DNA of 64,000 nt, from contig NC_135250.1 in the NCBI RefSeq assembly GCF_964204865.1, positions 9,486,001 to 9,550,000 of the forward strand, given 5' to 3'. The DNA is from Styela clava. Lineage: Eukaryota. Below the pieces are notes generated by a model. The model had not been told where the DNA came from and did no database searches. It was given only the letters and a program-made list of their open reading frames with translations. Below, piece after piece: positions 8,136-64,000 of this stretch. Position 1 is the first letter of the stretch, and each line of letters opens with the position of its first letter. Made by a program: the position numbers and the translations under genes.

Positions 8136-8933
8136 ATTTGAAGGTTTTTTTCTTAATTGCTGCGCTTCGAAAACTTTATAAAACTAATCCTCGTCAAAAG
8201 CACTATATCAAAAAACAGGAAACATCAGGAATGCCCTCCAGTGTCTATGCTTCTAACTAAGTATGTACAAGACTTTTCAAAACAAAAAATTGATTTTTAA
8301 AACCTGTAGAAATTCATAGAAAAGGGTTAGAAAAATCTTCTATAATCGAACCCATTATGTAGTAATTTAAAAAAAGTATGATTTTGAGGCATAGCACAAA
8401 TCTCAAATAGACAAGGTAATATTAATACTGTACAATTGCAGTAACCTTGAAACAGGTACTATTCATTCTATAACTTATTAAAGAAATTACCTGTACAGGT
8501 AATAGACAACATTGAGGCCTGAGTCATCGAAAAGGAATGACTCATACTGTCATCAATCGACTACCAGCGAAAATGACGTCAGTGATAGACGAAATGACAA
8601 AATAATATATTTTCAATATTTTGCAAATGTTTTTGTTGAAGCTACATTCGGCTGAAGAACATTAGTTTGCCTTTTCTGTTTTATATGCATATTTGGTTAA
8701 CTGTTTTTTATTTTTAATTCTACCGCTACATAGAATCATTGAGGCATGAATTCTCAAATTAACCTCAGACTAAAACAGAAGTTATAGTGAGATAAACTCT
8801 TGTGAAGTAGAGTGGATTTACTTTTAATAAATGCACTTTTTTGCACAGCTTAAATCAATGACAGATCTCCAAGCCACTCCACCCAACATCACAGATTCTA
8901 TTTCTGTATTTAATGTTTCCTTCACACATATCC

Positions 8934-11305: not shown

Positions 11306-14300
11306 ATGGAAGAAGAAACATCTAAAAAGGAAGGTAAAATACATTTGTGAAATTGAACTTAAGATCTTCAGAGAACTTAAAACCCTATATGCAAGGATAT
11401 ATTGGGATAAATTAACAGAAATGATACCGTTAGTGCGTTAAGATATTAATTTATTACCGTTAAGACCTTAATTTAGTATTGACTATAGTCAGCATATAAA
11501 ATTTCGTCGGCTAAATCTGGTTGTAATATTATATTATATGGTAACCAGTGAGCAATGTGTTACATTCCACCAACCCAATTTTTACAAACAAGAGCAAAAA
11601 AATCTCACTGAATCCGGTGCCAGGATTCTGCGTGCAAATTTTAAGACTGTTTATTACATTAGAACACCTGATGCCAGGGTTGAGTAGTGGTTGATTTAAA
11701 AAAAAAATTCTAGTTTTCAACTGCAAGAAAAACACATTTTAAACCATAAAAACATTGACAGATGTAAGCCTTTTTTAATTGTCAATGTTTTTAGTTTCTA
11801 TCGGAAATTTTGACCTCGATTATCCTTATTGAAAGTTTTAAATTCTGAATCATCAATCTGGGAAGCATGAAAAAATGCTGTGGCAGTTTGAAAATATAAC
11901 TCCAACTTCAATATCAATAAAAACATTGCAATTTCAGACGCCATAGCCTTGTCGTAAAAATTCATTCCTTTTTGTCAGGATATCCAGGGGTCGTATTGTG
12001 TAGTATACATTTCACTTACCGATTTATCACAACAAATAAAGATTTTATTAAAAGCGTAAAGGAGTACCTCTTGAATTTATCTGTTCTCTCTTTTCATCTA
12101 TTGTAGTTCAGTGAAGATGCATGTATAGTACTGAATATATCTTGTACCCTATACAGTACATACTCTATCTATCTGTTAATATGTTTTATAGGAACTGTTG
12201 AACCAGCCAAAACAACGACTGAACAGGAAACAGAAGAAAAGAGCAAGGCAGCAGAGGTAGCAGACACCAATGCTGAACAGGTAGGAACTTCTACAGACCA
12301 ACCAACAGAGACAAATACAGACAAACCATTAGAGACCAATACAGACCAACCAACAGAGACCAATACAGACGAACCAACAGATACCATTGTAAATGAACCA
12401 GCAGAGAACAATGTAGCACAACCAGCAGGGACTAGTGAAGACCAGGCTGCTGAGACCATTTCTGAGCAACCAGCAGAGCCGAGTGTAGACCAAGCGGCAG
12501 AGACCAATGCTGAGAAACCAGCAGACCAAGCTGCAGAGACCAATGTAGAGCCGTCTGTAGATAAAGCTGCTGAGACACCAGCAGACAAAGTTGCCGAGAC
12601 CAATGTTGAACAACCAGCAGCAGCCAGTGATGAGCAGTCTGCTGAGAATGAAACAAATGCACCTGTAGAGACCAATGCAGACCAGCCTCAGGAAAATAAC
12701 AACCAAACTGAGACTGCACCTACCAATGCTGAAGAACCTGTAATATCAACCAAAGAGCCTCCAGCAGAATCAGAACAACCACAGCTTATTGCTCCATTAC
12801 CAAGTGGAGTTGGTACAGATGATATATCAACTGAAAAACAAACTGATGATGCTCCAACTGTTACAACTGGTAAGCAATTATTGTGGTAATAAATATTGCA
12901 TTACTATCTATCAATGTAGATTAAGAATCGTAGACTAGATTAGGAAATGAAATATATTACAATTCATAATAATAGGTAATGGGCTCATGATTTTTTGTTG
13001 GCAATTCGTCTTATTCATTATTATATTTTAAGGAAGAGGAAAAGTGATAATATGGTGAAACTAAGCTTCTCAGCATTGTTTCAGTACAAAATGGGAATAG
13101 AATTAGCTAACCTGTTTATACTTCAAAATGCATGGACTTGGATACTGGTAGAAGTTCTAATCAACCAGTTGTCTATTCGTAACTTTGATTTAGGTGGAGC
13201 AGAAACATTGGAAGAAAAGCAAACAGAAGGAGGCCAAGATCAACAAAGTCAACCAGAAACTGCTGAAACCCAACAAGAAAAAGAAGCAACTGCCACTGGT
13301 ATAGTAGTATTTATATGGCATATTACACCCCGCAATTCCCAATGAAGCTTTGAGTTTACTTAAGTTTTGCATGATCATGACCTTTTTGTTTGGTTCAACT
13401 CACCCTATTCATCACATTCCTGGTGGTGTGGGTTTCATGGGTTGCACGGTAGACTTGATTTGACACAAAATAGTTCATTAAACTTCATTGACTGTTATTT
13501 TTTTTTACATTAGTTTTGTTAAGTGTAAGTTATGTATTAGATACTTCAACCAGAAGTTTTTCCCATGACCTCTGCTATACAAAATTTTTGGACCTCCTGA
13601 AGTATTCGCACCAAGATGTCGCACAACCTGAACCCAGGTTGTGTACCAGGTTATGGTTCAGGTTATGCGACATTTTGGTGCGCATACTTTAGGAGTACCA
13701 AATTTTTTTTTTATATGTTGCTTCATCATACCTTTTGCTCTCAACAAGGCCCTGTGCAAGCAAGCAGCCACTGATATTTTACAATATGTAAGAAGGTAAT
13801 GCCCACTGCCTACTTAATTTATTACACTCTGGTTGAGATTGTGGGCTTTAACCATTGGGCCATACCGCCAATGTTCCCTCTAATTTTTTGTAGTATGTGT
13901 GCGCAGAAGTTTTGGTGTGTGCGCACTTTTTTGGAAATGACTAATATTTGTGCAAAAACCAATGAAGAAATTTTGGCGATCTAACCGGGTAATAAGTGGG
14001 CCAACAACAAACTTTCTCAACCTGCCAACCGAGCACATTGTTACATTACATCGAAATAAGTCTGTGCGCACTGCGCAGTAAATCTATGCGTGTGCGCAGC
14101 CTCTGAAAGCTGTGTGCGCGCGCAGACGCGCACACCTTAGAGGGAACACTGCATACCGCCCATTGCTGATAGCTACATTTTAAACTTGATCTGTTTTTGT
14201 GAATGAATGAATTTCACTTTTTAGAGTAGTTTGTTTAATTTGTGAGTGGTAATTCATAAAATTTCTATCATTATCAAATATTTTACTTTATTTTTAGTTA

Positions 14301-41416: not shown

Positions 41417-42525
41417 CTATTTCGATCTATAATACTCAAAAACAGCTAGGATGATAATAATAAGTAAAATGAGAAAAAAGCATAATATCACAGACCACCA
41501 TTTTAAACCGCAATCCGCACCATTAGTTTTTTTAACTCTGTTTGGGGGAGGCATTGTCTGTTCGCTGGGATAAAATTGAATTGAAGACAGTACCTCATTT
41601 AAACTCTCATTGTGAGGTGTTTTATCATTTCCTATATCAGCTTTCTTGACGGTCTTTCTTATATCTTTATCAAGCTTTTTGAGGTAACTGTTCGTATCAT
41701 TTTTATCAGCTGCGTCAACACGTTTTGGTCTGTTGGATTGCACTAAAAGTGATGCTGTTTCTTCTAAACTTTCTGAAGAATCAAATTCAGAAGAAGATTG
41801 TATTTCAGGACTCGTATTTTGCGATGATTTACCGGAACTATCAGCATGGCTTGGCAAGATAGTTTCGAAAGAACGTTTCACATCAGAGTCAATACTGGTT
41901 GAAATAAGAGCAGATGAAGAAGCAGTATCTTGTGAATAAAACTGATCATAAATTTCTCGATGTCTTTGTTTTTCCTCAGGAACTGTTAGTAAACTGTAGC
42001 GACTTACAGGTATTTTAATAGTTTTTAAAGCATAAAAATCCTGTTCCTTTATCAGTCCGTTTGCTCTTTTGATGTCATTAATCTGAAAAAATATGAAATA
42101 TAAAACAAAATGACTGATAAAAGAAATTTTATGATAGATAAATAACACCAAATAAATAATATACTGTGTGAAATTTAAACAATCTTTATACAACTTACAG
42201 AGCATCCATATCGCAGTGAAAAAGATTGCAACGTATCGTTAGGCAGTATATCTTCGGTGAGTAACACAGTGTTTGATTTATTTCCATTACTAAAATTTCC
42301 ACTTTCTCCATTTTTATTATAATTGGTATCTTTTAATTCAATTAGTTGAGTATCATCGTGCGTTTCTTTTACTTTTCTCCGCAAGCTGCTTTTTACGACA
42401 CCGGATATTTCATCCGAACTGCTTGTTTGATGACCAGATGATGATAATGTATTATATTTCAAATAAGACTCTTTTTTGCTTAATAAAGCAGTGTCAGCAT
42501 TTTTATATAATGCAGTACTACTCAT
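41417..42525 (-). CDS. LYSMD3: LysM domain-containing single-pass membrane protein (LYSMD3/4-like), ~330 aa
   Basis: Exons 42525-42199 and 42082-41417. The LysM domain ILPNDTLQSFSLRYGCS|INDIKRANGLIKEQDFYALKTIKIP spans the intron. The C-terminus has GADCGLKWW followed by a hydrophobic TM segment. A probable non-coding first exon lies at ~43091-43270. Confidence 0.88.
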
Positions 42526-44246
42526 TGCATTATGTTATTGAGCTAAAATAATATTGAGAAATATAAAAAACCAAATATTCCCGATAATTGTGCTATTGGT
42601 GAGCTTTTTGCGACCACGAATCCTTCTTCTACATTTTCGATATGGCATTTGTTTAAGAATTTTCAATATACATAATACAGTAGGCCTATGGGGTCTCGTG
42701 AAGTAAATGCTGTTACTGCTTAAATAACACCAAAAAAACGTGATGTGAAAAGAAAATATAACGTTAACCCAAACTTTGATTTTTTTAAAATAAAGGTCTG
42801 TCTCGATGGATCGATACACTTTATTTGGCATAGGACATCAATGCTTGGTTTAAAATTGAGTGGGTTGGATTTGAATTATACACGTGTTTCAAGAATTTCA
42901 CTCTGTCTGTCAGATGATATTGGGCTGAAAAATTTCTCGGAAATAGCAAAAGATTTTTGTTTTTAAGGTTTCACATTGTGTATTCAAAACAGTTTTGTAG
43001 AAATGAATAATCTCTGCCGAACAATCTATACAATAACGGTACCTCAGCTTACTGGCTTACACAATTGAGGAATCAATCAATTGACCTTACTCCTACTGCA
43101 GTACTGTCTTATGCCTGTATGGTATGCCGTCATTAACTTGCATCTAACTTCACTGCCAGCTACTGACTTTCACTTCGAATGGTCACTTTTCTTACGATTA
43201 TCTTCAGATCTGGCTCCAGGTTTTGGAAAACAATTCCACCTGCCTGAGGTGAAGACTCGAACTTGAAAAATTTCCAAGAATGACGGCGCCACTATGACGT
43301 CAGAAATAAACTCACCTGGAACTAACCATCCATGTCAAAATTACGTAAATATCTTCGGGTCGAACACTAGTGGTAGTGGAGAGCCGGAACCTGTAGTCTG
43401 GAATCCGGATAAAAAATTTTCTCGCTGAAAGTAACGAGCCACCAAGTTTAATCACAACTTTGATCACATAAAAGTGAAATTAATTTCATTCAACGTTCGG
43501 AAAATTACCGACATCCGGGCTTTTTGAGTAGGGCTTATATTGAAATCATTTTTTAAAATTCAGGTAGGTCTTATTTATAGGCTAGGTCTTATTTTCAGGG
43601 AAACAAGGTATTTCGAATGTTACAAAGCTGTTGTTAGAATAGGTCACAATTAGTGACAAAAATTAATATTATACGAGGGCGGGTTAATCAAGATTTGGTC
43701 AAAATAATTTTTTTTCAAATATAGAGCATGTACATTAGATCAAAATTCAGTAGGGTTTTTGTTCGACTAGTCGGTATCAAGACGGGATTATAAATTCTGT
43801 TGGCTGTACAAGGTAAACGGTCGGGCAGGTAATATGTGGCTAGATTCTCGATACAAATAGAAGCCAGGAAGTGAATTGTGGTCTGGACCAGTTATTAGCC
43901 ATTTCTTCGTGCCGTCCGTGTTGAGCTTGACGTTGGGTTGAGCTGTTTTATGGCATTACTGGGTCTAATCAATTCCAGTCATGGCATTATGAATGAGAAT
44001 CGATTGCTGTATTTATTTTCATAACAATGACCAATCAGCAAAAATGACTCAACAATTGCAATTTGCGCAGCCGCTCAGACTATTGAATCATTGGTTCATA
44101 CAGATATTCAAGCAATTCGAGGGCCGGGAAACATCCATTTCTGGCATTTGACTTTCACGACTTGGATCAGCTAGTTGTTGTCAAGTTTTTAATGCGGTTG
44201 ATAGACTATCCGATTGGGCGCTTGTTTCCCGGAAAATATGACCACC

Positions 44247-47200
44247 CAGTGGCGGCGCATGGTCATTTTGACAACCGGGGCAAGCTACTGCGGGACCAAG
44301 TCACCCCCATCTACGAGGACAGGATGAGCGCTGTAAGTTCTCCCATCATTTTATGAATATAAAAACCATTCCATCGGTAACAACCAATCGGCAAAAGCGA
44401 CAATTTTTAACGATAAGAAAGTGTCTTTAAAACCGGTCCAAGTCAAGGGATTAATAAATATAGACATAGTTTATTTTGAAACCTCTTTCAAAAGGAAAGG
44501 CAATATTTACCCAGATAAATAAAATGGCACATTAACAGAAACTTCGGGAAAGCAGACAAAACCTAAAATAAGGTTTGAAAAATGTTACTATGAAGAAAGG
44601 AAAGTTAATGCAAAGATAAGGACATGCGTCGCTCACTCATAGATATATATGCTGCTAGACTTCTACTGCTTGAACATATATGCAACACGCCGCGGTTTCT
44701 TGGAAGCAAAATGCTCAATAACGCGCTGATTAAAGTCATGCATCCCAGAAATAACGTCTCTGTGAATGGATAAAACAGCCAAGAAATTTAATCTATCTTG
44801 CTTCATTGTGTTTCTGAGATACGTTTTAATACGCTTCAGCGTGCTGAATGTTCGCTCTGCGTCGGCGGAAGAAATGGGCGTCGTCAAAATGATGTCCAGA
44901 AATTTTGCAGACGCCGCAAAGGTAGTTACTAGAGTGTTATCTATGAGGAACCCATAGAGCGCGCAAGTTGATGTGATGTTCAAAAAAGTTTGATTGGTGT
45001 ATATAAATCGCAATTCATTTTCCAATTTACCCACGTTTATTATGGGGTAAAATTTGGAGACAGTAGCCAACAAATGGATGGGAAATTGACGTGCAAATTT
45101 TGAAAAATTTTTGAGGTTCATCAAAGAGAACGCGGCAAGGTGTTCAGTGCGCAGACAATCGCCTATTTGATTCACCAGAATGTCACAGCATTCCTTTGCA
45201 GACAAAATCAAACGCTGCGTTGTTTGCCCGCGGCGTAAAGAAGCACTCCATGTGTCGTCGTATTTTATTGTTTCCCGGATACGAGATACAGCATCGCAGA
45301 AGTCTGAAATACACGACTACACAGACGCTCCATCCATTAGCCTTGACTGCAATGCGCCGTATAATACATCCACGTAATAGAATATTGTGGAGAAAAAAGC
45401 GAGAAAAAATGAAAACTCACCATCTTCTAGCAGACGCTTTAGACCTGCCGCCTCCCTCACAGAGCGTTCGTCCCAAACCGGAGAGCTCTGAATGCCATTG
45501 AAACACTCAATGAGCTCAGATCTAATTTCGAACACGCCCTGCACCACGCGTGATTGGAAGTTCCAACGTGTTGGTGCAAAAGCTGGGAGACGGCGGCTAC
45601 ATATCTGGCGAAGGAGGTCAGAGCGCTTCGGCGAAACGGAAAAAAATGAAGAAAACCCCGAAACATTTGCAAAAAATATACGGACGAGAGGGGTATCAAG
45701 ACACATATTTTTAATAACGAGGTTAAATTGGTGTGCATAACAATGTAAAAAATGCGCATGAGGAAAATCTTCTTTTATATAAACTTGAACACCATGTTTC
45801 GACCCACTCATGACTGCCGCGCCGTCATAAGTTTGAGCTATCAATTTTGACTTCGCGTTGTAAGGCTGTAACACTTCTTTCAGTACAGCCGATATCCCGC
45901 AAGCCGTGCGATCAACGATTGGTACAAAGCTGTGAAATCTCTCGGTAGGTTTACCATCTTTCACAAACCGAAAAATCACAGCCACTCGGGAAACGCACGT
46001 GATGTCAGTTGTCTCGTCAGACTGAATCGAAAGGAACTGGCAATTCTCAATTTCCAGAGCCAAATGTTGTAAATAAATTGTATACATTGAGTCGAGCAAA
46101 TCATTTTGGATATCCTTAGATGTCCCTTTCGAAACAGTTGCGGCATCAAGATGATCTCTCAATACTGTATCTAGGGAAGCGGTGTATTCCACCATATCCA
46201 AAAATACCCCTCTATTAGAAGAGCCAGCCCGTTCATCGTGCCCATGGAGGGACAGCTCGTGACAACCAATGAACTTCAAAACATCTATCAACCGACCGAG
46301 AACATGGCGGTTTTTCTCGACGTTTTGGTTGTGCCGACGAATAGAAACCGCGCGTCCTTCATCCAACTGTGCTGCAATATTAACATTTCCGAATGTTCGG
46401 TATTTTACTGCATTGTCCAGATGCTCCATAGAAGATTGATGATCCCTGGCACGCTCGGAAAGATGTTCAAGATCTCTAAAACCAAATTTACACCAACGTG
46501 AGTCACGGGCGGTAGCAATAAGTAGGCAATAAAAACAAAAAAGTGCATTTTTGTCCTCGTTGTAACACAACCATTCGTGTTTTTTATACCAAGTTTCTGC
46601 GCAGAATGTACGCCGACGCTTTCCTCCGTCATGGGATTGTTCCAGTGAACAATTTTTTGGTTGATAAGGCCCAAGACGTTGTACCTCTAATTTTTGTTCC
46701 AGCGGCAGCTGCGAAAACGGAGTGCGAAGTAGTGCATCAACCTTATTCATTATGAGGTCTAAGGCTAAGAAATGCGAAGCCGGAAAGAAGTGAGGAGCTC
46801 AAAAGGAATGTGGAAAATCGAAAGCAAATGGACTAAAGGTCTCTAACTGATTCAAATAGCGAAACAAGCGACAAAAACGAAGGCGAGGAAACTATCAACT
46901 CTTTAAGCAACCAACGAACGAGAAGGAATGCGTGAATAAGTCAACACGTTGTTGTAAGAAACGTCGGCATTGTGTCGTCATAATTTCGGGGCTAGCCCCC
47001 GATGATTTAGTAAAAGTAACAGAAAACAAACGAGACAAACGCGGCGAGTGGAAGATAAAAGAGAGAATACGATATACAATGAGCAACCGGGGCAAAATCG
47101 GCGTCGCCCCGTCGACGTTCGGCGAAGGCTTTGCGAGCGAAAAATGAACCATGTCGGAAGAATATGGCTAGTGTAGACAGTCTGTGCAACCGATATTGAG

Positions 47201-47270: not shown

Positions 47271-49320
47271 TGACCACCATTGTTTATGTTGGACCGTGAA
47301 CCGACCATGCTTCATCACTGCACACTCTCTCGGTTCAATTCGTCGCCTGCTATTGCTCGATTTTGGTGTTGCAGGCAAATTAGCCTACAGTAATTATTGA
47401 TGTCGCCCTTGTTCTAAATTAGTTTCCCAAAACAGATGTGATTGTTTTGCTATGAATCCGTGATTGCGATACTTGAAAGATCTCCACTCATCCCTGAAAA
47501 GTGGAGACATATATGCACTCGCGTACTGAGGGAACGGAGGTCATGGCTCCTTCTCTTCCCCTCCTGTTTAAAACGCATATTATGACGTCACGTTTTCTGG
47601 TTTGCGTTTATTACAGCTCAATTTCTTTTAAATACAAGTTGTTCATTCAGTACGCATCTGTCTGAAATGAACAATTATTCAGAAATGATTTTGAAATATA
47701 AATTTAGACGTTTACGTTCTTCATTTGTTATCAACGTGCGTTTACAAACCCGGACTTCATGGTCTATGACTCTATATAATCGTACTCGGTTGGCGAAGAG
47801 ACGACGTAAATCGACTATCTAATTGTAAAAACCTCCCAATCCTCCAATCCAATGGACACTGCATTGTCATGGTATGTATCCAACGCCCGCCCGTTGATTG
47901 AAACAGTGGCGAGAGCTACAGGAAAACAACTCTTGGCAATGCTAGGTTCGGTTGCACGAATCACTTCTTTTCCACTATTGTCTCATTCTCTAAGGTTGAG
48001 GTTTTTTTGGGTTTCAGGGGCTTAATTATATAGGCATCGCAAACAGTTTCCGGTACGTGTAAACCATTGGTGACTTGCTCTAAGTGTGGATTCGCGAATG
48101 AGATCTATGTGCTCAATTATTGTCGTGCGATCAAAATTAGGCATGGGGAGATCTTGACTCACCTTCCTATATTCAGATTTTTTTAAACACAAAAAAAATC
48201 TCGGATATAATATCACATGAGCGCAATATAAATAACAACTAACATTGCTGCAAGGCGTGACAATACCTGCCATTAGTTTTCATAGAAAAATTATTCCCCC
48301 TAATCACTTGTACGGATTCGTTTTCATATGGATATAAAAGTGTCTTTTTATCATTAAATTGATGAGTCAATATTCGGAAGTACTTTTTTTTGTGTGTGAT
48401 AAATATAAAACTGCAACTCTCGCGTATCGGTAGTTTTCCTAAATAAAAGTTTAACGGAAAGCAAATTTCAACAGAATAGTTTCGCAAACACAGAGAATGT
48501 ACTATTACCAGGCCACTCTAGCAAGATACTCGGATAAATTATTTGATAAGAAATCGGATTTTAACGAGAATGCGTATTTTGTTTATTTAATTTTATGAAC
48601 TTCTAAAGTTACCGTATATTTATGTTTGTACTAGCAACTATGTTAGGGCACCTCTGAGTATGATGTAGTAAGTACTTAACCAAAAAAATTCAGGTAAGCA
48701 AGATGCTTGTGCATTACACGAAAGCGTAATATCTTATATTCAAAGAACCAAATTATAAGTATATTATGTTTAATCGATGCAATTATATCAAATCAAAAAT
48801 GAAACTTAATGGAAATCGAAAATCTGAATGAGCTTTTATTATTATTCGAAAAAAAGAAAAATAATAAGCCTAATATCAAAATTATTAGATTTATTTCAAT
48901 TTCAAAATATTTACCATGATAATTTCGCGACAAAACGGTTTCATTCACAAGAAAGACTGGTACTTTAAAGAAGTAGAATTTCTACGAAATGTGTTATACT
49001 GTAGGGAAGTCTACGACCCAGTGGTGCCATTAATTATAATTATAATCCATTATGTATATACGTTTAATTTATGAGTTTCGTCACTTGTCAGAATTAAAAT
49101 TATGCGCAATTTCGACCACGAATGATTAATTTATGGGGAAATTATTATTAATTTTTTATTTAATGAATTCCTGGATAAAAAAGCAAAAATCCTTCGAGAC
49201 TCGTTTACATGACTGGCTATTCTTGATGTGGTAACGCAAATTGAAAAAAGGTTGTGCGTAATTGCTGGAATTTGACGTCTAACGCAAGTATATTTTGCAA
49301 GATTTTTCATAGTAAAATGG

Positions 49321-49327
49321 TATAAAA
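49321..49327 (+). promoter_or_regulatory. Candidate TATA box of peptide gene copy 1 (copy 2: 57136-57142)
   Basis: TATAAAA is conserved in both copies. It is followed by a likely non-coding exon (donor GTAAGG/GTAGGG) and an acceptor TATCACAG ~75 nt before the ATG. Confidence 0.5.
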
Positions 49328-49780
49328 TGACAACACACCACAATATTTAGACAGCATTGCAAGTTGTCTTCCGACATGACAAAGATTGCTGATTAGTTGT
49401 AAGGCTGCGTATCGCGAGAAATATGGAATAAATGACTGAATGAAATTTGAATGTTTCAAAGAATTGAGCTGTATCATCAACATCGATCGACTATATGTAC
49501 TTCATATAGTTATAGTAATACGTATGTGTTTCTCGATCGAATAGCCAATTTTTTATTGTAATTCACTATTTTTTATGTAATGTTGTTTTCACGATTAGGG
49601 TAGTTTAAAGCTATTTGTGCGCGGACTTACTGTTATCTACATAATATTTGATTATGTACTCTTAAGATAATAATTACTATAATAATTATATTTTTTTTAT
49701 CACAGTTTTGAAGGTAGAGCTTATCGTAGCTTAAAACTTTTCGTTCGAAGAAGGCTGAATACAGTGATAATATCGGAAAC

Positions 49781-51373
49781 ATGAAAACATTTATAGCTAT
49801 TCTGACCATTAGCGCAGTGTTGTCTCTCACTGCAGCATACAAACCATACTGTCCGTATAAACCTGACTGTTCATTGGTTCTTTGTGCCCTTCCCATCTGT
49901 CCGAAAGGAGTCAAGTATAATACTCCGCGCTGCAGGTAAGGTATATATAGTTATTATTTCATTTACACAAATATATCCCGAGAGGACCCCTCCGTCCCAT
50001 TTTGTACAAAATCTCCCACGAGTTTTCGAAGAAATTAGCTTAGAGCAAGGCCATACGCACTAATTCAGAAATAAAGGAGTTTGATCTCCGAGCAAAGTTA
50101 CTGACGACCACGAAAGTGCCAGGAGCTAAGACTATAAAGAACTATAGTGCACGTTAGTAAGTAATGGTTTCATTACATTTGAACCCACGACAACTGCACC
50201 TGCATACTATTGCACCTATGGAAATATTTTTTGTTTTGCGGATATTTGAACCCATACTAACCCTGCCCATGGGTTTTAGCACCCGCATATAGATTGAACC
50301 CGCGGATATACACATGGGTTCAAATGTACGTGGGTTCAAATGTACGTTCACCGTAAATAATGATTAACAAGAGACCTAGAGCAGTTCATTTCAATACGAC
50401 CAGGAAAACAGCTAAGAGGCAGTCGATTCCACATAACTAAAGTTTCGGCCAAAAAATCTTTTTGTCTCGTATTCACACTGACAGTAAACTGTAAAACGCT
50501 GAAAGTCAACCGGGTGTGATAGCTGATAACTTTTTTGGGTGGGCAGATTCAGAAGAACATAGTTCATTATACCGCTTAGTTGTAATGTTTCGAATATAAC
50601 CTATCCGTTTGAAAACTTCAATATATTTTAGTTTACGTGCGACAATGTCATTTCAATTTCATACTGAACGTTACATTAAAATATTTTTACACGTGTTTCA
50701 GTTGCTGTCCGGTTTGCGGAGGAGGATATGGAGATAAATGTGGAGGAACATATGGAAACTGTAGACCAGGATTGTTCTGTTACAGACCGCTTTGTAAATG
50801 GCATTTGTCCGTTTTGAAACCCGGTGTCTGCATACCTGAATATTCTTACGTGAGTATTGCCTTACTAAAGTCTGAAGTTTCATGTTGGTATGAGCTACTG
50901 ACAAGAAGAGAATATAAACGATAATATTCTCACATTATGAAAACTGAACTGCGTAGAATTTCACTTACGATCCATATTGCACACTTCTTATATCAAATTA
51001 CTACTGTTAGCTTAATTAACTATTAGTTTAAATAGTTGAGTGCGTCGAGGGAGACAATTGAGTAACTTGTGCCACATTATGAATCGCTACGATTTTCTGA
51101 CCTGCTGTTAGCTTTGAGATACATTACGAGACTCAAATAATTGATTATGTCATTTATTAACTTTTTAACATAACTGTCATGTTTTGTAAATGTTAAATTT
51201 ATGACAGTTTTATCATTATTCTTAAACATTTTTGCAATATTTTTCACAAAAGGCAATCCGACTGTAATCGCAATATCTTGAAATTCCGAATATCCGATTT
51301 ATTCCTTTTTTATTTTTATTTTCAGAGTTTCCAGTCAACCATGCCATGCTACATGGATTTTGCACTGCCATAA
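49781..51373 (+). CDS. Small secreted cysteine-rich protein, single IGFBP N-terminal (IB)-like domain, copy 1 (116 aa)
   Basis: Exons 49781-49935, 50702-50849 and 51326-51373 join in phase to give MKTFIAILTISAVLSLTAA-YKPYCPYKPDCSLVLCALPICPKGVKYNTPRCSCCPVCGGGYGDKCGGTYGNCRPGLFCYRPLCKWHLSVLKPGVCIPEYSYSFQSTMPCYMDFALP*. It has a signal peptide, CxCCxxC, C-x-x-G-L-x-C and GVC. Confidence 0.85.
50161..50356. mobile_element. MITE present only in intron of copy 1
   Basis: TIR core TACATTTGAACCC / GGGTTCAAATGTA. The paralogous site in copy 2 (~57936-57952, CACGTTAGTAAATAATG) is empty. Confidence 0.8.
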
Positions 51374-53314
51374 ACCATCTTATGACGATAAAATATATGA
51401 ATGCATCATAACAATATTTATTTGACAAAAAGATTATTGATATAGTGCATTTTGGTGAAATAAATCTGAGTTTGAACAAGTGTCAGTTTTGTCGCAATTT
51501 TGTGCAAACAAATTATCTCTGCTGGGTGTTTGTAAGGTATGGGTTTGAAAATAAACAACGTTTTCCTAAATACGGATATAACATATGTATACGATGTTTC
51601 CAGTGACAGGTATAAATTCAAAACTCTTAGTCGATTTGAGCCACAAAACAAGACACCAAAAGTTGGGTCTGAGTGTAACAAATTTCTGGAATTAAAAGAT
51701 TGTCTAGTTCAGCCGCTGGATTTTTGAGTCACAAGGCCTCAAATCGCGAGCTTCTGCTAATGAGACATATTAGATTTTGTAAGCTAAAGTTAACAAACAA
51801 ATGAGACTCGAATGGAATCCAAATACTTTTTTAATTAATGTTAATTAACAATCTTATATAATTCGTTTTTGGCGTATGTACGACGCGCCGCGCCGACTTA
51901 CCGTTTTAATGTATTAAATTGATAAATGAGTAGGAATGTAAGTTTCAGCTTTTCAAATCGGGGCAATTCGAATCAATATTAATTCGACTCAATTCGAAAA
52001 ATTTAAGAAAAAATGGCTTGATTCTGTTTAAAAAAATTATGATCCAAATAATATGAGGCGATTGCAAGACGCAGCGAATATGGATCGTTTTGTTATTATG
52101 TTTTTGTTATTTGAAACTATTCATATTTTATTGATTATACAAGAGAGAGATGCTCAAATATATAGCCCTAAACCCAAAACGTATCACAGACTCCACGACT
52201 AAGGCAAACGTAACCACCACAAAGTGAGCAAATTTTGATGACGTAATCGCACACAAATAACGAATCCCATAGGGCCCTCATAAATTTTGGAAATAAATAA
52301 AAGTAATAGATTTCTAACGAAAAATACAATCTTCAACTACGGAAAGTTTGAAAGCATTTGGTCTAGTAGTTAATGAGAAAAGCGATTTTTTCACAAGGAG
52401 AGGGAAAAGAGAAGGAATACTAACAACATGATGATCAACAACAACAACATATTAACAAAACTATTCATTGGTCAATTTCGTCTCCAATAAGTGTATGGAT
52501 GGCAACAGACTCTGATAACCACAAAACGTCGTATCTTTGCCTCCCGGTCATATACCAAAAGAATCTGTTTATTTATTACTTATATATATATATGCTTAAA
52601 TAATGTATTTCATGGTTTGACGAATGAAATAACCCCCTCTTACTTTTATTTTGTCCATGTTTATTTCCTTGTTAGTATTTTTTCTCGTTATGAAAAAACG
52701 CCTTTGTTATTAACTACTTGCTTGGAAATTTTCAGTAGGTAAAGATTGTATTTTTCGCTAGAAGGGTATTTTCATTCATTTCCTCAATTTCTGAGGCTGA
52801 TATTATTGTTTCAGTACAGTGCCATTGTAGTTACTCTAGCGTTGTATTTTTGGTTGTTGTCAGGGAATTAGCTATCATCAGTACTGTTTAAAGTGTTTTT
52901 ATTGTGTATATTCTGTTTACTTGCATTGTGCAGCCTGATACTTGTCGCTTTATTGTATGCTTGTCGTTTTGTTTGGAGTATTTGGTTGTGTTGAGAATTG
53001 TTAATTAATAAATAGAACAAAACAGTATAAATTGAAGTGAATATTGAGAGGAAACTTGACGTCAGATCATATTGGAAGATCATCTGAACTTGGATAAATA
53101 TTTCATAGACTGTCGGTACGCTACAAATTTTTGGCGAGAGCACGCCAGGATATCTTCTAAACGTAATATGTCACGCGTAAATAGAAATATGTTTCAGAAT
53201 CCCTTAGTTTTTTGTCACAATGGCTGTTTGGCACTTCTCACACATAACATAGACATGCGCTGAGCGCGTGTTCACAAACGTAGTGGCAAATGTTCTGTCC
53301 AATTTGGCTTTAAC

Positions 53315-53487
53315 CAGTGGTGGGATTCAGTCGGTTCGCACCGGTTCTATAGAACCGTCTCACGGAATTTTATCAGCGAACCGGTTAGCATTATGGTCAC
53401 TGTCAATGTTCTGTTTGTAACAGAACCGGCTGAAAAATATCCTTTTGTGAAGAAACCGGCTGACAAAAAATTTGAATCCCAACACTG
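53315..53487. mobile_element. hAT-type MITE
   Basis: TIRs CAGTGGTGGGATTCA and TGAATCCCAACACTG, TSD GCTTTAAC/GCTATAAC (1 mismatch), repeated GAACCGG motifs. Confidence 0.8.
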
Positions 53488-53497
53488 GCTATAACTA

Positions 53498-54023
53498 CAG
53501 GGAGTCCTCGACTTACGACGTTCTTGAGAAGCGGCGTATCTCGAATTTCAGTGTAAGTCGGAACATTATACTGTACAGTACATAAATTACTCTATACATA
53601 TCGTACTGTATATTAGAAACATCTGTTTTACGCTTTGAGTCCATAACAAAGGGCAAAAAGTTATAAAAAAAAAACGAGCAAAGAAGTCATGAGAAACCTG
53701 GCTCAAACAACCAAAATTGCGTACAGTATCACTGAAACTGTATACCATGTGACTGAAGCTTAGTGATTATTCGTTCATAATCGTAATATGTCGCAATTGT
53801 CTACTCTACGTTATTCACGATGTAAATGACGAAAACCAATGAGCCTAAAGCACTGATTTTCTTGATCACAATGATCCAGTTCAAGGGCTTAGATATTACA
53901 GTACAGTATTATCTTTTATATTTTTATGGAGTGCGTTCGTTACCTCGAAACAGCGTTATGGAGTGCGCGTTCGTAACCTCGAAACAGCGTAAGTCGCGAC
54001 CGTCGTAACCCGAGAACTCCCTG
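53498..54023. mobile_element. pogo/Tigger-type MITE
   Basis: TA-flanked TIRs CAGGGAGTCCTCGACTTACGACG and CGTCGTAACCCGAGAACTCCCTG, with an internal 2x ~32-bp repeat near the right end. Confidence 0.8.
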
Positions 54024-55168
54024 TATATAGTTTGAAATCCGGTAACAATAGTAAGCTCAGCCTTGGAATATCAGAATTTTCTGGGGGCCATATGCCGCAC
54101 CAAAAGAGCCATATATGGCTCGCGAGCCATGGGTTCCCGACCCCTGGCCTAGATCAAACAATCGTCTTTAAGTTTGGCTTGTATGTCGCTGTAGCTAATC
54201 GAAGCAGTTCTTTCATATGATTGTCACTCAGATCAGATCAATGCTTTGATTTCACGTGTTTCAGGGTAGAAAAACACAGCTTCGCAGACGTATGTTGACC
54301 TAAACATTGACAATATCCCAAGCTCTGCTAGTTTGACATTGGGGTATTTTTCCGTTGGCATGATTATCTATACCTCAATGGTCGCTTTTCATAAGAGCAT
54401 TTCGGTTGTCTTCTTCATGGAGATCGATAACTTTCGACTCAGTTGTAGCCTCATCTGAGGGACTGATACTAGAGGGAACTTCAAACTATCCGTCTCAGAA
54501 TTAAACGAGTCGTCGACGACGTAATCTGTAAGGTTTTATCAGCACTTCACTCAAATGGTAAACTGCGCGTTTGCCGCCGAACGTCGTTTTCGATATGATA
54601 ACGACAGCCGTTGTAGTACCGTTGTAGTTATATTTACGGTAGTACAATAAATGGGTTTCATGACAAGTGCAGGTTCAAGTACTTTGTGGCGTCTGAAGCT
54701 GCCGCAAAACCATGGCGGGATTTCCAAACCATGGGAACCTTACCTCAAATCTGGTACATGACTTTGTGGATATACCGGTAATAGCACTATAACCACGGCA
54801 AGAGCTGTCATCGGTTCATTCGTGACAGGAGCTGCCACGAAGTGGTAAGAACTGCGCCTCATAAATGACGTAATAATGGCCGATTGTATTGTAAAGTGAA
54901 TGGCGGCGTTTATGTATCTTCAACGTAAAAGAAGAATGCAGTATGAATCATAATATGCATGTTTAATAGAAATATGATGAACCGTAGTCTGGAGTTCTTT
55001 TTTCCTTAAAATAACCAAGGCAAAAAGAGCCGCATGCGGGCCGCGGGTTGGCCACCCTGATGTGATCAATTATTGTCGTACGGAGATGAAATTAGGCATG
55101 GGGAGATCTTGGCTAACTTGCCGACAATCAGATTTTTTAACAGCAATATCGACGCAGTTTGTCGGAAG

Positions 55169-56363
55169 CAGTATGTTCCCCAGCTTTTTATTTTAGGGGG
55201 GGTGTTTCGAAATTTAGGGGGGTGGTAAATAATTTGCTATTAGAGATAATACTAGGTTATTTGTATTCTTAAAAAAATGGTATGTATTTAAGAAACGATG
55301 TACATGGGGGGCCCTCCAAGTTGATTGGCGGCGAGCCAAAATCCACAGCAGAATAAAATTGTAGGGCCAGAAAAGGGGAGCGAGGAAAAGTGCGGGACGA
55401 CACGGCTGGGAAATTTTGAGAAATAGGCACCAAAATAGGCTCTAAGCTTAATTTTAGATACACCTAGCATCACAGTTTGTTATGTAATGAAATCAATAAT
55501 TATAATATTATAAATTAATAATATTATAATATAGAATTCCCGGGAAATAGATAACAAGCACGGCTTTCAACCGTAAATATATATATACTACTACGTTTCA
55601 ACAAGTAATTTGCAACTGATAGTGACTAATGAAGTTACTTGCTCATCTGGCATTGTATGAATGGCTACTTATGGCTTGTTTTGTTACACATTTCACATTT
55701 TTTTGAACATGTGTGTTTGACTTTTGTATGAATTAAGCAATGAATTAAATTTTGAAATACGCGCGTCAACTGATCATAATGGTGCATAATGTTGTATTCC
55801 TTCAGAACTGAAATATTTTGTTGGTAAGAAGACAAATCGCTGAAGTTTGATTCTTTTCAATAAAGAAATAAAAACGCTGTCATTCATCTAAAAAACGTCT
55901 GTTTTCAGTGCCTAGTTTTCGTTTTGTGACATCTTTAAGCTTTCTTAATTATACGGCAAATATCTAAAATACTGAAGTGTGTAATCCTAATACCCATACG
56001 TATACATAAGATACCGGTATAATTCAATTGTTACGAAATAAACGTGCTTAAACTGTGATAATGATGTAACAATAGACGGTATCTAAAACTCAAAAGGTAC
56101 CACATGAAGGGTTAGCCCGTTAAACTATTTCACTCAAGTTCGGCGGGCCATTTTAAATCGTCACGCCGGCCGTAATTGGCCCGCAGACTGCGGTTTAGAA
56201 CCCCTCATCTACACTGATAAATATGCCATAATCGTTATATTTGAATACAATTATACTTGAGTTAGGAAATAAAGTGTGGAATCGCACCTCAAAATTAGGG
56301 GGGGTGTTTGAAATTTTAGGGGGGGTGTTCACCCCCTATAGGGGGGGTGTAGGGAAATCACTG
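55169..56363. mobile_element. Non-autonomous hAT element (1195 bp) upstream of peptide gene copy 2
   Basis: Perfect 8-bp TSD GTCGGAAG (55161-55168, 56364-56371), imperfect TIRs CAGTATGTTCCC / GGGAAATCACTG, TTAGGGGGGGTG subterminal repeats at both ends, and a nested MITE fragment at ~56130-56205. Confidence 0.85.
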
Positions 56364-57570
56364 GTCGGAAGCACGTCGCTATTACAGCTGCAATGCCACC
56401 GCCTAACCTAATTCTTGGGTAAATCGGGAGGAATTGATTTGTGGTTTAACCACTTGGGAAAAGTGAGATTTTCCGAGTTTTTAACAGTTTGATTAAATTC
56501 AAGAAAACAGGATGCTTGTGAAATACACGAAAGCGTAATATCTTATGTTCAAAGATCCAAATACCAAATTATAAGTATATATATTATGTTTAATCGATGC
56601 ATTTATATCAAATCGAAAGAGAAACCTAATCAAAAACGAAAATTGGAATGACATTTATTATTATTTGACGAATGGGAAATAAACAGTTTAATATCTAAAA
56701 TCTAAATTATTAGCTTTATTTCAATTTCAAAAAAATAAACATGATAATTTCGCGACAAAACGGTTTCATTTACGAGAAAGACTGGTACTTTAAAGAAGTA
56801 GAATTTCTACGAAATGTGTTACACTGTAGGGAAGTCGACGACCCAGTGCCATTAATTATAATTATAACTCATTATGTATATACGTTTAATTTATGAGTTT
56901 CGTCAGAATTAAAATTATACGCAATTTTAACTACGAATGATTAATTTATGGAAAAATTAATATCAATTTTTCATTTAATGTATTCCTGAATAAAAAGGCA
57001 AAATACTTCCGAGACTCGTTAACATGACTGGCTATTCTTGATGTGGTAACGCAAATTGAAAAAAAGTTGTGCGTAATTGCTGGAATTTGACGTCTAACGC
57101 AAGTATATTTTGCAAGATTTTTCATAGTGAAATAGTATAAAATGACAACACACCACAATATTCAGACAGCATTGCAAGTTGTCTTCCGACATGACAAAGA
57201 TTGCTGTGTAGATGTAGGGCTACGGATCGCGAGAATTATGAAATAAATGACTGAATTAAATTTAAAAGTCTTGAAAAATTGAGCTATATATCATAAACAT
57301 CAATCGACTATATGTATTTCATATCGTTTCTCGATCGTATAGCCAATTTGTTATTGTAATTTACCTCATTGCATGTAATGTTTTGCACGATTAGGGTAGT
57401 TTAAAGCGATTTGTGCATGTTCTCTCTGTTATCTACCCAATATAATATTTGATTTCGTACTTCTAAGATAATATTCACTATATTTTTGTATCACAGCTTT
57501 GAAAGCAGAGGTTATCTTAGCTTTGAACTTTTGTTCGAAGAAGGCTGAATATAGTAATAATATCGTAAAC

Positions 57571-58917
57571 ATGAAAACATTCATAGCTATTCTTGCCGTT
57601 TGCTCAGTGTTGTCTGTCACTGCAGCATACAAACCATACTGTCCGTATAATAAACCTGACTGTTCATTGGTTCGCTGTGCCCTTCCCCTTTGTCCGGAAG
57701 GAGTCAAGTATCATTATCCACGCTGCAGGTAAGTTATATATATTTATTACTTCATTTACACAAATACAGTCCGAGAGTATCCCTTCGTCCCATTTTGTAC
57801 AACATCTCTAAAACAATTTTTGAACAAGTAAGGTCACGCGTACTAATTCAAAAATAAAGGAGATTGATCTCCGAGCAAAGTTACTGACGAACACGAAAGT
57901 ACAAGGAGCTGCTAAGACTATAAAAAACTATAGTGCACGTTAGTAAATAATGATTAACGAGAGACCTAGATCAGTTCATTCCAATCCGACCAGAAAAAAG
58001 CTAAGAGGCAGTCGATTACACATAACTAAAGTTTCGGCTAAAAATCTTTTTGTCTGGTATGCACACTGACAGTAAACTGGAAAACGCTGAAAGTCAACCG
58101 GGTGTGATAGCGGATAACTTTTTTGGGTGGGCAGATTCAGAAGAACATAGTTCGTTATAACGCTTAGCTGTAATGTTTCACATGTTACCTATCCGTTTGA
58201 AAACTTTAATATGTTTTAGTTTACGTGCAACAATGTCATTTCAATTTCGTACTGAACGTTACGTTAAAATATTTTTACACGTGTTTCAGTTGCTGTCCGG
58301 TTTGCGGAGGAGGATATGGAGATAAATGTGGAGGAACATATGGAAACTGTAGACCAGGATTGATCTGTTACAGACCGCTTTGTAAATGGCATTTGTCCGT
58401 AGTGAAACCCGGTGTCTGCATATATGAATATTCCTACGTGAGTATTGTCTTCTGTACTAAAGTCTGAATTTATGAGCTACTGACAAGGAGAGTAAATATA
58501 AACGATAATATCCTCACATTACGAAAACTGAACTGCGTAAAAGTTTACTTGCGATCCATATTGTACACTTCTTATATCAAATTGCTACTGTTAGCTTAAT
58601 TAACTGTTAGTTTAAATAGGTGAGTGCGTTGAGGGAGACAATTGAGTAGCGTGTGTCACATTTTCATCGCTACGATTTTCAGACCAAGTTTTTAACAATA
58701 TATTAAAACCATGCGTGTCTTTTCATAACTGTCATCATTTTTCAAATATTAAATTTATGGCAGTTTTCTCATTATTCTTAAAGACATTTCAGTAATATTT
58801 TTTGCAAAAAACTGTAGCCAAAATATCTTGAAATTTCGATTAACTCAATTATTCCTTTTTTATTTTCAGAGTTTCCAATCAATCACTCCATGCTACTTGG
58901 ATTTTGCACTGCCATAA
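57571..58917 (+). CDS. Small secreted cysteine-rich protein, single IB-like domain, copy 2 (117 aa)
   Basis: Exons 57571-57728, 58290-58437 and 58870-58917 give MKTFIAILAVCSVLSVTAA-YKPYCPYNKPDCSLVRCALPLCPEGVKYHYPRCSCCPVCGGGYGDKCGGTYGNCRPGLICYRPLCKWHLSVVKPGVCIYEYSYSFQSITPCYLDFALP*. All splice sites and 14 mature Cys are conserved. Confidence 0.85.
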
Positions 58918-60535
58918 ACAAACTTATGACAATAAAATATTTGAATGAACCATAACAATATTTATTTGACAAAGAGATTATTGATATAGTGAATTTTTGT
59001 GAAATAAATCTGAGTATGAACGAGTGTCAGTACTGTTGCAATTTTGTGCGAATAAATTATCTCTGCTGGGTGTTTGTATGAGTTTGAAAATGAACAACGC
59101 TTTCCTAAGTACGGAAATAACATATACGATACGATGTTGCCAGTGACATGTATAAATAAAAAAACTCTTGGTCGATTTGAGGCACAAGACAAACACCAAA
59201 AGTTGGGTCAGAGTGCAACAAATATTTAAAATTAAAGATTGTCTAGTTCAGCCACTGCACTTTTGAATCGCGAGTCGCGAGCTTCTGCGAATGAGACATA
59301 TCAGGTTAGGACATAATTAGGTTAAAAATAAGGCTCAAATGGAATCCAAATACTTGAATTTTACCAATCTCATTTAAGTCAATTTTGACGTACGTACGAC
59401 CTACCACGCCGACTCACCATTTAAATGTTTTAAATAATTGATAAATAATTAGGGATGTAAGTTTCAGCTTTTTGAATCGGGGCAATTCGAATCAACATCA
59501 AAGAATAGACGATGTTTGTAGATATTCAAAATGTATTACAGAAACACACAGTCATCGACTGAAGCATCAACAAAAGAAGAAGGGAGAGAGAAACCAAGGT
59601 CACTCATGCATGAAGTAATGGGAGCCATAATACAGTATACCACATACTGGTGAAATTGCTTTAAAATTTCCATTAGCTGAAGATTGTATTCGCTAGAAGG
59701 CTATGACTTCCATTTATTCCAACAATTTCTGTGGATGCTATGGGATTTGTTTGTATTTGCGATGACGTCACAAAAATTAAAAATTTCGATTCTTGTGGCG
59801 ATAGTCGATTGTGGCAGATTGAATACCCTAGTTCGTTTTGGTGTTCGTGTTCATATATTAGACTTTGTTTAGTTTAGACCGGTATGTTAGTCGTTGGTTT
59901 AGACTTAGAGCATACTTAAAGAATTGACTACTTAAGATGCTGAAAAGTTTTACAAATATATCATTACATAAACGCTTCTTTAAAGTACCAATACACTATC
60001 AATATAATAACAGCAATATTCATTATTAAAGACATAGGTCTGCGATGTTTCCTTCGTAATCTTTGTTTCTTTTAAAACCATGGCACGAACGGCATGAAAG
60101 CACATTCAAATACTGTTCATTATTTGGGTGAATTTTGAAGGGAAATATAAGAAGAAAACGATCACTACAATACAACGTACAATAAAAATGAACATGTAAC
60201 TGTATGTAGCTCTTTGTAACAAAAATAACCTTTCTATTCGAAACTTAAATTCCTATAAATGAGCAATTAAGTTTTTACAATTGAAAATAATGAACAAACT
60301 AATAAGAAAAAAATACAACATTAAAAAAAGAAAGCAAGATTTTAAAATTTCGTTCGCTTGAAATTTTTTTCTCAAAAAATTATATTCTCACATTCCCGCA
60401 AAATTTATTTTCGACAAACGCTGGACTTTCGCGAAAAGTGTAGTGGCATAGCGCCATCTCGCGAAAGTATGACGAGCATGTACAAATTAGCTAAAGGGCG
60501 CAAATTATTCTTAACGTTGACGAGATTTGCCGCTG

Positions 60536-60563: not shown

Positions 60564-63555
<2,992 letters not shown>

Positions 63556-64000
63556 GTGAGCTGTTGTATTATCAAGTGCTCAAAGACAGTCTTTGGCTTA
63601 AAATTTTATGATTTTTGTTACATGAAATGTATGTTGGTTTGTCAGCTGTACCCCTCAGCACTTATTTGTTTAAAAAATGAAATAGAAGTATTGCCCACAG
63701 ATAAACCGGTTAGGGGATGTAAATCGTAATTTGTAGAGTGTAAGGCGTCTTTGATTTTTTTGGAAAAGAAAATGGAACTTTGTCATTGGTGGAATATTTT
63801 CAGTTGCATAATAATCTAGCAGCTCGACACTAAAATGAATGCCTTTCTCATCTAGAATATTGAACAATAACATCCGTCCCGTTTTTTCGTATTCCATCTC
63901 GGTGTGAAAACGCATTTTGTGGATAGACTGTTAAATTTTATTTGACTGGTGTATTTTATTAAATCTGTACGCAAGATGTCTGTATAGTGGAATTAACATT

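What the first reader, a model, noticed from the sequence alone, without database searches (positions are those of the whole stretch)
49781..58917. Tandem pair of diverging secreted 14-Cys single-IB-domain peptides (candidate uncharacterised effector family)
Seen: two intact genes with 3 coding exons each, fragmented in the ORF track, each encoding a signal peptide plus a ~97-aa Tyr/Pro/Gly-rich mature peptide. Established: CxCCxxC...C..GL.C...G.C is the IGFBP N-terminal (IB) pattern, which normally has 12 Cys; stand-alone IB proteins include arthropod SIBD/venom proteins and molluscan perlustrin. Seen: there are 14 Cys here, with extras in an inserted loop (PLCKW) and in a separately encoded C-terminal tail (PCY). 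By my count the mature regions differ by 11 amino-acid replacements and a one-residue insertion against 4 purely synonymous codon changes, with all Cys fixed. Inference: a seventh disulfide staples the tail, and the copies are under relaxed or diversifying selection, as for immune, tunic or insulin-like-peptide-binding effectors.
Basis: partly seen in the sequence, partly recalled or inferred. Interest (0 to 1): 0.72.

Follow-up and report, generated by a model that had tools for sequence, protein, structure and literature searches.

The report
Sea-squirt tyrosine-rich single-IB protein pair
Two neighbouring, spliced sea-squirt genes encode small cysteine-rich, predicted secreted proteins of an already known single-domain kind; their two extra cysteines are shared with nine other genes in the genome and likely form an extra bridge, the two copies show no sign of rapid diversification, and their likely job is defence in blood or tunic.

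Summary
Two intact three-exon genes lie in tandem. Both introns are spliced, and the transcripts stop after exon 3 in RNA contigs of two studies. Both are already RefSeq models of Styela clava, misnamed 'serine protease HTR4-like'. Each scores above the Pfam IGFBP cut-off. They are single-IB-domain (SIBD-type) proteins in a genome with at least 31 IB genes that share the same split exon. The two extra Cys are not peculiar to this pair: 11 of 11 genes with the loop Cys have the same second intron and a candidate Cys-bearing third exon, and 0 of 13 genes without it have that intron. That favours a seventh disulfide, which is still inferred. Diversifying selection is not supported: dN/dS is 0.68 (0.29-2.11), dN is half the non-coding divergence (p = 0.008), and 2 of the 11 differences are polymorphisms shared between the copies. 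What sets the pair apart is 10-12% Tyr, against 1-5% in seven relatives, and a poorly kept IGF-binding patch. The likely role is an IGF-independent defence or tunic protein, untested.

The parts
49781..49935 (+). Gene A exon 1: signal peptide (aa 1-19, predicted) and IB Cys1-5; ends in a phase-2 intron inside the C-x-C-C motif
   Evidence: RNA-type contigs and joint
50702..50849 (+). Gene A exon 2: IB Cys6-12 plus the extra loop Cys83; donor 18 nt after Cys12
   Evidence: (Pfam IGFBP 19.8 bits for the half domain)
51326..51373 (+). Gene A exon 3, coding part: 15-residue tail with Cys109, then stop; AATAAA at 51459; A-type contigs end at 51436-51507
50166..50352 (.). High-copy element with inverted ends, inserted in intron 1 of A only (MITE-like; bounds approximate)
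   Evidence: gap between self-BLAST blocks; very high depth in all runs; inverted ends
50676..50775 (.). 99-nt tract identical in A and B, across the intron 1/exon 2 boundary; candidate gene-conversion tract
   Evidence: chance 0.1-6% depending on the background rate assumed
57571..57728 (+). Gene B exon 1
   Evidence: (X5 record 27)
58290..58437 (+). Gene B exon 2 with loop Cys84
58870..58917 (+). Gene B exon 3, coding part, with Cys110 and stop; AATAAA at 59003; contig ends at 59021
48686..51982 (+). Duplicated block, copy A
   Evidence: self-BLAST about 83.7% identity to 56495-59501
56495..59501 (+). Duplicated block, copy B; separated from A by a repeat-rich spacer of about 4.5 kb

Best explanation
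Two spliced tandem paralogues encode basic, Tyr-rich single-IB-domain proteins of about 11 kDa that are predicted to be secreted and likely act as IGF-independent defence binders in the sea squirt's blood or tunic, with a likely seventh disulfide (loop Cys83 to tail Cys109) tying the C-terminal tail to the domain. Shown: gene structure, splicing, termination after exon 3, IB-domain membership, 14 Cys, two loci, and a subfamily of 11 intact genes sharing the loop Cys and the second intron. Inferred: secretion; the six canonical IB bridges (by alignment to IGFBP-4); the seventh bridge; release from blood cells; and binding of microbial surfaces or proteases rather than insulin-like peptides. The copies arose by a local duplication (non-coding divergence about 12%) and have since evolved under moderate purifying or relaxed selection, with probable gene conversion.
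For: Pfam IGFBP 32.5 and 32.2 bits against a cut-off of 28. The ten best Foldseek rows are IGFBP-4, SIBD-1, IGFBP7 and HtrA1-N. Splicing and 3' ends. Loop Cys goes with the +18-nt donor in 11 of 11 genes against 0 of 13, and with a Cys at position 7-8 of a candidate exon 3 in 11 of 11. pI 8.65 and 8.52. The IGF-binding hydrophobic patch (IGFBP-4 Val48, Leu69, Leu72; PMC5618481, passage read) aligns to Gly67, Trp85, Ser88. Shrimp single-IB genes are expressed in hemocytes (PMC7866140, passages), and spider SIBD came from hemocytes and may be immune (PMC4244560, passages). Other IB genes of this genome lie just upstream of fibrinogen-C and TIL exons. The family occurs as tandem arrays with one broken copy.
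Against: No tissue, stage or challenge data: the runs carry no library record and RNA is the tool's guess. No assay. The AlphaFold model is weak (mean pLDDT 58; loop 84-89 and tail 101-116 under 50) and gives no disulfide pairing. No Foldseek match reaches E 0.001 and the best VIA Z is 5.0. The exon-2 tree does not recover the loop-Cys genes as one clade (3 changes, 0% of bootstrap trees with 1; poorly resolved, A/B on a 2.78 branch). The Cys co-occurrence reflects few independent events. The exon-3 search pattern was built from known tails. 7 of 11 members have a second tail Cys (15 in all), so other or intermolecular pairings are possible. dN/dS gives no arms-race signal. Many invertebrate IB proteins are reported to bind insulin or IGF.
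Confidence: 0.42

Rival explanations
1. Tyr-rich structural or wound-sealing protein: the IB fold serves as a scaffold whose 10-12 Tyr are converted to DOPA and cross-linked in tunic or clot.
For: Tyr is 10.3% and 12.2% against 1.0-5.0% in seven related single-IB proteins. B has two more Tyr than A. Styela clava hemocyte styelins carry dihydroxyphenylalanine (PMC10608444, passages). The mollusc IB protein perlustrin is a nacre protein (reference title only).
Against: No modification data. Contig depths are low (6-46), which is weak evidence because depth is a poor measure of expression. A compact 14-Cys fold is unusual for a bulk structural protein (own knowledge).
Confidence: 0.2
2. Low-affinity binder of insulin-like peptides or a neuroparsin-like signal that modulates growth or reproduction.
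For: The IB domain can bind ligand in isolation (PMC5618481). Many invertebrate IGFBP-related proteins and SIBDs bind insulin or IGFs (PMC7866140). A hydrophobic loop (WHLSVL) sits where the IGFBP helix lies, and a one-residue shift would restore part of the patch.
Against: In register, two of three patch residues are Gly and Ser. There is no C-terminal domain. The genome holds unsplit IB genes that score higher on the Pfam model (C16, C9). Neuroparsin profile only 8.5-9.2 bits on exon 2.
Confidence: 0.2
3. Protease inhibitor of the amfpi-1 type, a narrower form of the defence reading.
For: An Atlas cluster in which 42% of members carry PF12190 amfpi-1 scores 0.88, a lead only. IB-TIL neighbours occur in this genome.
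Against: Pfam amfpi-1 is not hit. No reactive loop was identified.
Confidence: 0.1
4. The two copies are uncollapsed haplotypes of one gene.
For: Ascidians are highly heterozygous (own knowledge). No read or contig spans both copies. One RNA contig joins B-type exon 1 to A-type exons 2-3 (X2 record 17).
Against: Both accessions exist in two versions that differ by 1-3 residues, so each copy has its own alleles. DNA run X10 covers both copies at similar depth, with contigs near 525-580 on each and others near 250-400. Run X4 shows A-type and B-type contigs together. No single-copy control was laid.
Confidence: 0.04

Closest known systems
Single IB domain proteins (SIBD-1 of Cupiennius salei, PDB 3zxb; shrimp LvIGFBP2/3; crab SIBD; proteins automatically named 'venom protein 302-like')
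   Same: Signal peptide plus one IB domain and nothing else; about 100 aa; 12 aligned Cys; Pfam PF00219; fold rows; Atlas clusters at 0.90-0.93.
   Different: Two extra Cys and a separately encoded 15-residue tail; C-x5/6-C instead of C-x2-C at the start; 10-12% Tyr; found in a chordate.
IGFBP1-6 N-terminal domain (IGFBP-4, 2dsp/2dsq; IGFBP-5)
   Same: 12-Cys ladder and C-x-CCxxC motif align; top structural matches.
   Different: No linker or thyroglobulin domain; GCGCC reads RCSCC; IGF patch aligns to Gly/Trp/Ser.
HtrA1/3/4 and IGFBP7/Kazald (source of the RefSeq name)
   Same: N-terminal IB domain only.
   Different: No Kazal, protease, PDZ or Ig domain; transcripts end after exon 3, so 'serine protease' is a misnomer.
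Neuroparsins
   Same: Secreted IB-like peptides of about 100 aa; extra Cys have precedent (a partial crayfish neuroparsin with 16 Cys, PMC5141488, passage).
   Different: Neuroparsin profile far below cut-off; arthropod neurohormones.
Loop-Cys IB genes of the same genome (P0030/P0039 at C1 8.98 Mb; C1 10.94 Mb; C13 2.25-2.29 Mb and 17.38 Mb)
   Same: Same first intron, loop P-x-C, donor 18 nt after Cys12, Cys-bearing tail exon.
   Different: Only 9-12 non-Cys identities over exon 2; seven have 15 Cys; P0030, the one measured, has 5% Tyr; common ancestry not resolved by the tree.

Membership tests
IGFBP N-terminal (IB) domain, PF00219 | Score above the Pfam gathering cut-off | tested here: met
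   32.5 and 32.2 bits against 28
IGFBP N-terminal (IB) domain, PF00219 | 12 conserved Cys with CxCCxxC | tested here: met
   spacing of Cys1-Cys2 is x5/x6 rather than x2
IGFBP N-terminal (IB) domain, PF00219 | IB fold | tested here: inconclusive
   Best rows are all IB domains but E >= 0.003, Z <= 5.0, model pLDDT 58
SIBD (single IB domain proteins) | IB is the only domain and the transcript ends after it | tested here: met
   One Pfam family; contigs run from exon 3 to the poly(A) signal
SIBD (single IB domain proteins) | Signal peptide | tested here: inconclusive
   Hydropathy peak 2.6-2.9 near the N-terminus and a T-A-A cleavage motif; no SignalP
SIBD (single IB domain proteins) | Hemocyte expression or immune response (typical, not defining) | not testable with these tools
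   Runs carry no tissue record
IGFBP1-6 (high affinity) | C-terminal thyroglobulin type-1 domain | tested here: not met
   Stop after a 15-residue exon 3
IGFBP1-6 (high affinity) | Hydrophobic IGF patch (IGFBP-4 V48, L69, L72) | tested here: inconclusive
   Aligns to G67, W85, S88 in a weak pairwise alignment (E 0.05); a one-residue shift changes the result
HtrA serine proteases / IGFBP7-Kazald | Kazal plus protease or Ig domain | tested here: not met
Neuroparsin, PF07327 | Score above cut-off 23.5 | tested here: not met
   8.5-9.2 bits on exon 2; not listed for the whole proteins
Genes under diversifying selection | dN/dS above 1 | tested here: not met
   0.68, bootstrap 0.29-2.11, 22% of resamples above 1; dN below non-coding rate, p = 0.008; pairwise only, site-level selection not tested

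The most novel reading that the evidence does not exclude
Styelid ascidians expanded the IB module into a large effector family, one branch of which gained a seventh, tail-stapling disulfide. This pair went further: it lost the IGF patch and became Tyr-rich, a DOPA-cross-linkable disulfide-knotted tunic or wound sealant, or a modified antimicrobial. That would be a use of the IGFBP fold in a chordate that my searches did not find in print.
Probability: 0.2. Interest if true: 0.6.

Novelty: new variant of a known kind. Interest (0 to 1): 0.3.

Why it matters
Modestly. It corrects a wrong database name: these are not HtrA proteases. It also shows that a chordate has a large, apparently undescribed expansion of single-IB genes, with a 14/15-Cys branch and IB exons next to fibrinogen-C and TIL exons. 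That offers a testable case of how the IGFBP N-domain is used outside IGF signalling. If the Tyr residues are DOPA-modified, it would add a folded protein to the short list of ascidian catechol proteins. No function is shown, and the pair itself is an ordinary tandem duplicate.

Tried and rejected
Diversifying selection: rejected. Exon-3 skipping into Kazal, Ig or thyroglobulin domains: no such joint or loose end was listed in 7 RNA-type runs, though tables 5, 7 and 8 were cut. Haplotype artefact: unlikely (see rival). No run is on record as RNA; the seven RNA-type runs were judged by their exon-only cover and GT-AG joints. The similarity of exon 1 to Cys repeats of the half-vWC type (P0005-P0009 and others, E down to 8.5e-13; vWC and Kazal hits for three of them) covers only about aa 14-68 and is treated as a convergent Cys pattern. 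Searches for orthologues in other ascidians found none; the word-index searches are insensitive and only one ascidian genome was searchable, so this is no evidence of absence. The tree of exon 2 alone was unresolved. The structure model gave no disulfide information. No complex was predicted: a pass would follow from likeness to solved IGFBP-IGF structures, and no insulin-like partner was at hand. Literature: none of the titles and abstract openings listed by searches concerns these genes or an ascidian single-IB expansion; searches (accession numbers) returned nothing. Subscription papers, including the original SIBD and perlustrin papers, were not read, PMC125553 was not held, and no supplements were opened; Styela transcriptome supplements could hold tissue data. 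Earlier scan notes held nothing on this family. ARAGORN found no tRNA gene in the window.
Full report
Observation. The window holds two copies of a block of about 3 kb (48686-51982 and 56495-59501, about 83.7% identical). Each has a three-exon gene with GT-AG introns of phase 2 and 0. The products are 116 and 117 aa, with 14 Cys in the predicted mature chain.

Expression and ends. Seven runs that the tool guesses to be RNA were laid. Outside repeats they cover only exons and UTRs. One search lists both joints with GT..AG ends. In one search one 563-nt contig covers B exons 1-3 and ends 18 nt after an AATAAA. A-type contigs end at 51436-51507, around the AATAAA at 51459. The runs come from two studies. 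No read-through into a further domain was listed, though the tables were cut. Tissue is not recorded.

Already annotated. The only close database cluster has four members, XP_039273071 (.1.2) and XP_039273082 (.1.2) of Styela clava, named 'serine protease HTR4-like' or 'HTRA3-like'. The .2 versions (P0002, P0003) match the window's translations. The name reflects only the IB domain: Pfam finds IGFBP alone, at 32.5 and 32.2 bits against a cut-off of 28.

Two loci. Each accession has an allele differing by 1-3 residues. DNA run X10 covers both copies at similar depth, and run X4 has both types. No single-copy control was laid and nothing spans both copies, so a haplotype artefact is unlikely but not formally excluded.

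Selection. Nei-Gojobori on codons 19-116 gives 13.5 differences at 220 N sites and 6.5 at 74 S sites: dN 0.064, dS 0.094, ratio 0.68, bootstrap 0.29-2.11. Introns and flanks differ at 298 of 2420 columns (12.3%), and dN is about half of that (Fisher p = 0.008). Alleles blur the difference further: A's allele has L39 and V90 as in B, and B's allele has L91 as in A. A-type contigs of three runs carry the L39 base. A 99-nt identical tract spans the start of exon 2, with a chance of 0.1-6% depending on the background rate. This fits purifying or relaxed selection with gene conversion, not diversification. Exon 1's Cys2-Cys5 stretch and the tail are the variable parts; site-level selection was not tested.

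Family context. PF00219 gave 25 matches in the genome at E <= 1, and P0030 gave 38. Among 38 distinct IB sites in the 40 loci examined, 31 have an acceptor just before the CC codons as in the window pair. One more (L010) was flagged but matches the whole profile in one frame and is set aside; 6 are unsplit. These counts are lower bounds. Of 26 loci given to, 25 were processed: 11 have a Cys 5-7 residues after Cys11 and a GT donor exactly 18 nt after Cys12, 13 have neither, and 1 is a broken copy with a stop at a Cys codon. Six further loci without the loop Cys (five near-duplicates and L037's second gene) were left out and show no +18 donor. All 11 have a candidate exon 3 with a Cys at position 7-8. 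The pattern was modelled on known tails, and only the window pair (RNA) and C1 8.98 Mb (RefSeq P0030/P0039) are independently supported. Four tails have one Cys (the pair and two at C13 17.38 Mb) and seven have two. The invariant first tail Cys is the simplest partner for the loop Cys. The exon-2 tree does not settle ancestry: the loop label needs 3 changes, only 5 of 24 branches are well supported, and A/B sit on a very long branch.

Structure. The AlphaFold model from 17 sequences has mean pLDDT 58, about 70 in the core and under 50 in the loop and tail. The ten best Foldseek rows are IB domains (IGFBP-4, SIBD-1, IGFBP7, HtrA1-N) at E 0.003-0.11. The best VIA match is IGFBP-4 at Z 5.0, rmsd 5.4 over 82 residues. 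A profile of the alignment hits IGFBP7, IGFBP-5 and SIBD-1 at E 4e-11 to 9e-10. The fold assignment rests mainly on sequence, and the seventh bridge is not shown.

What is distinctive. The mature chains have 10 and 12 Tyr (10.3%, 12.2%) against 1.0-5.0% in seven related single-IB proteins, with pI 8.5-8.7 and no N-glycosylation sequon. The IGF-binding patch named in PMC5618481 (passages) aligns to Gly67, Trp85 and Ser88, in a weak alignment.

Mechanism. Most likely these are secreted, disulfide-locked binders acting in defence in blood or tunic, independent of IGF (0.42). The basis is the hemocyte link of arthropod SIBDs (PMC7866140 and PMC4244560, passages), the basic charge, the birth-and-death pattern of the family, and IB genes upstream of fibrinogen-C and TIL exons (co-splicing not checked). 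Rivals: DOPA-cross-linked tunic or wound protein (0.2; Styela peptides carry DOPA, PMC10608444 passages); insulin-like-peptide binder (0.2); protease inhibitor (0.1); haplotype artefact (0.04).

Novelty. Single-IB proteins are a known kind, and extra Cys have precedent in a crayfish neuroparsin (PMC5141488, passage). Nine literature searches listed nothing on these genes or on an ascidian expansion; I saw listings only, apart from passages of the papers cited and of PMC11925022, PMC6468893 and PMC7212414, which added nothing. Verdict: new variant of a known kind, interest 0.3.

Noticed in passing
G000 C13 17.6-17.8 Mb and C18 10.46-10.61 Mb (L039, L042): Signal-peptide plus IB exons lie 2-5 kb upstream of Fibrinogen_C exons on the same strand: possible IB-FReD immune lectins. 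Co-splicing not checked.
   Followed up: partly
G000 C3 13.18 Mb and C4 19.54 Mb (L004, L028, L040): IB exons followed by TIL-type exons (Pfam TIL confirmed for L040): possible IB-TIL protease inhibitors.
   Followed up: partly
G000 C1 8.98 and 10.94 Mb, C13 2.25-2.29 Mb (L025, L044, L049, L051, L053, L057, L059): Seven loop-Cys genes have two tail Cys, giving 15 where exon 1 was found; the odd Cys suggests covalent dimers or attachment. One copy at C13 2.279 Mb has a stop at a Cys codon.
   Followed up: partly
G000 C13 7.52-7.64 Mb: Tandem array of 12-Cys single-IB genes with near-identical duplicates about 70 kb apart; RefSeq names them SIBD-2 or venom protein 302-like.
   Followed up: partly
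G000 C17 110 kb (L016, L041): Split IB exon that looks like CRIM1 (recalled resemblance, not tested) and shares the first intron position: a possible source of the family.
   Followed up: no
window 57621-57725 joined to 50699-51507: One RNA-type contig (X2 record 17) has B-type exon 1 with A-type exons 2-3: an assembly chimera through the 99-nt identical tract, or a recombinant allele.
   Followed up: no
window 49690-49706 and 57480-57497: A pyrimidine-rich AG acceptor about 75 nt upstream of both ATGs; by record offsets, B-type contigs begin at it or run 3-12 letters past it. A non-coding exon or spliced-leader addition is possible.
   Followed up: no
window 44663-46798 (-): hAT transposase remnant in two adjacent ORFs separated by a stop (DUF4371 and hAT dimerisation domain).
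   Followed up: partly
window 62046-63729 (+): Exons of 40S ribosomal protein S4.
   Followed up: partly
window 12107-12889 (+): 260-aa acidic Glu/Thr/Pro/Ala repeat frame with only a weak Cornifin hit.
   Followed up: no
window 41417-42534 (-) and 7812-8183 (-): Frames resembling a LysM-domain membrane protein and a ceramide-synthase/TRAM-like N-terminus (both recalled; two of these frames were scanned and gave no Pfam hit at E 0.01).
   Followed up: no
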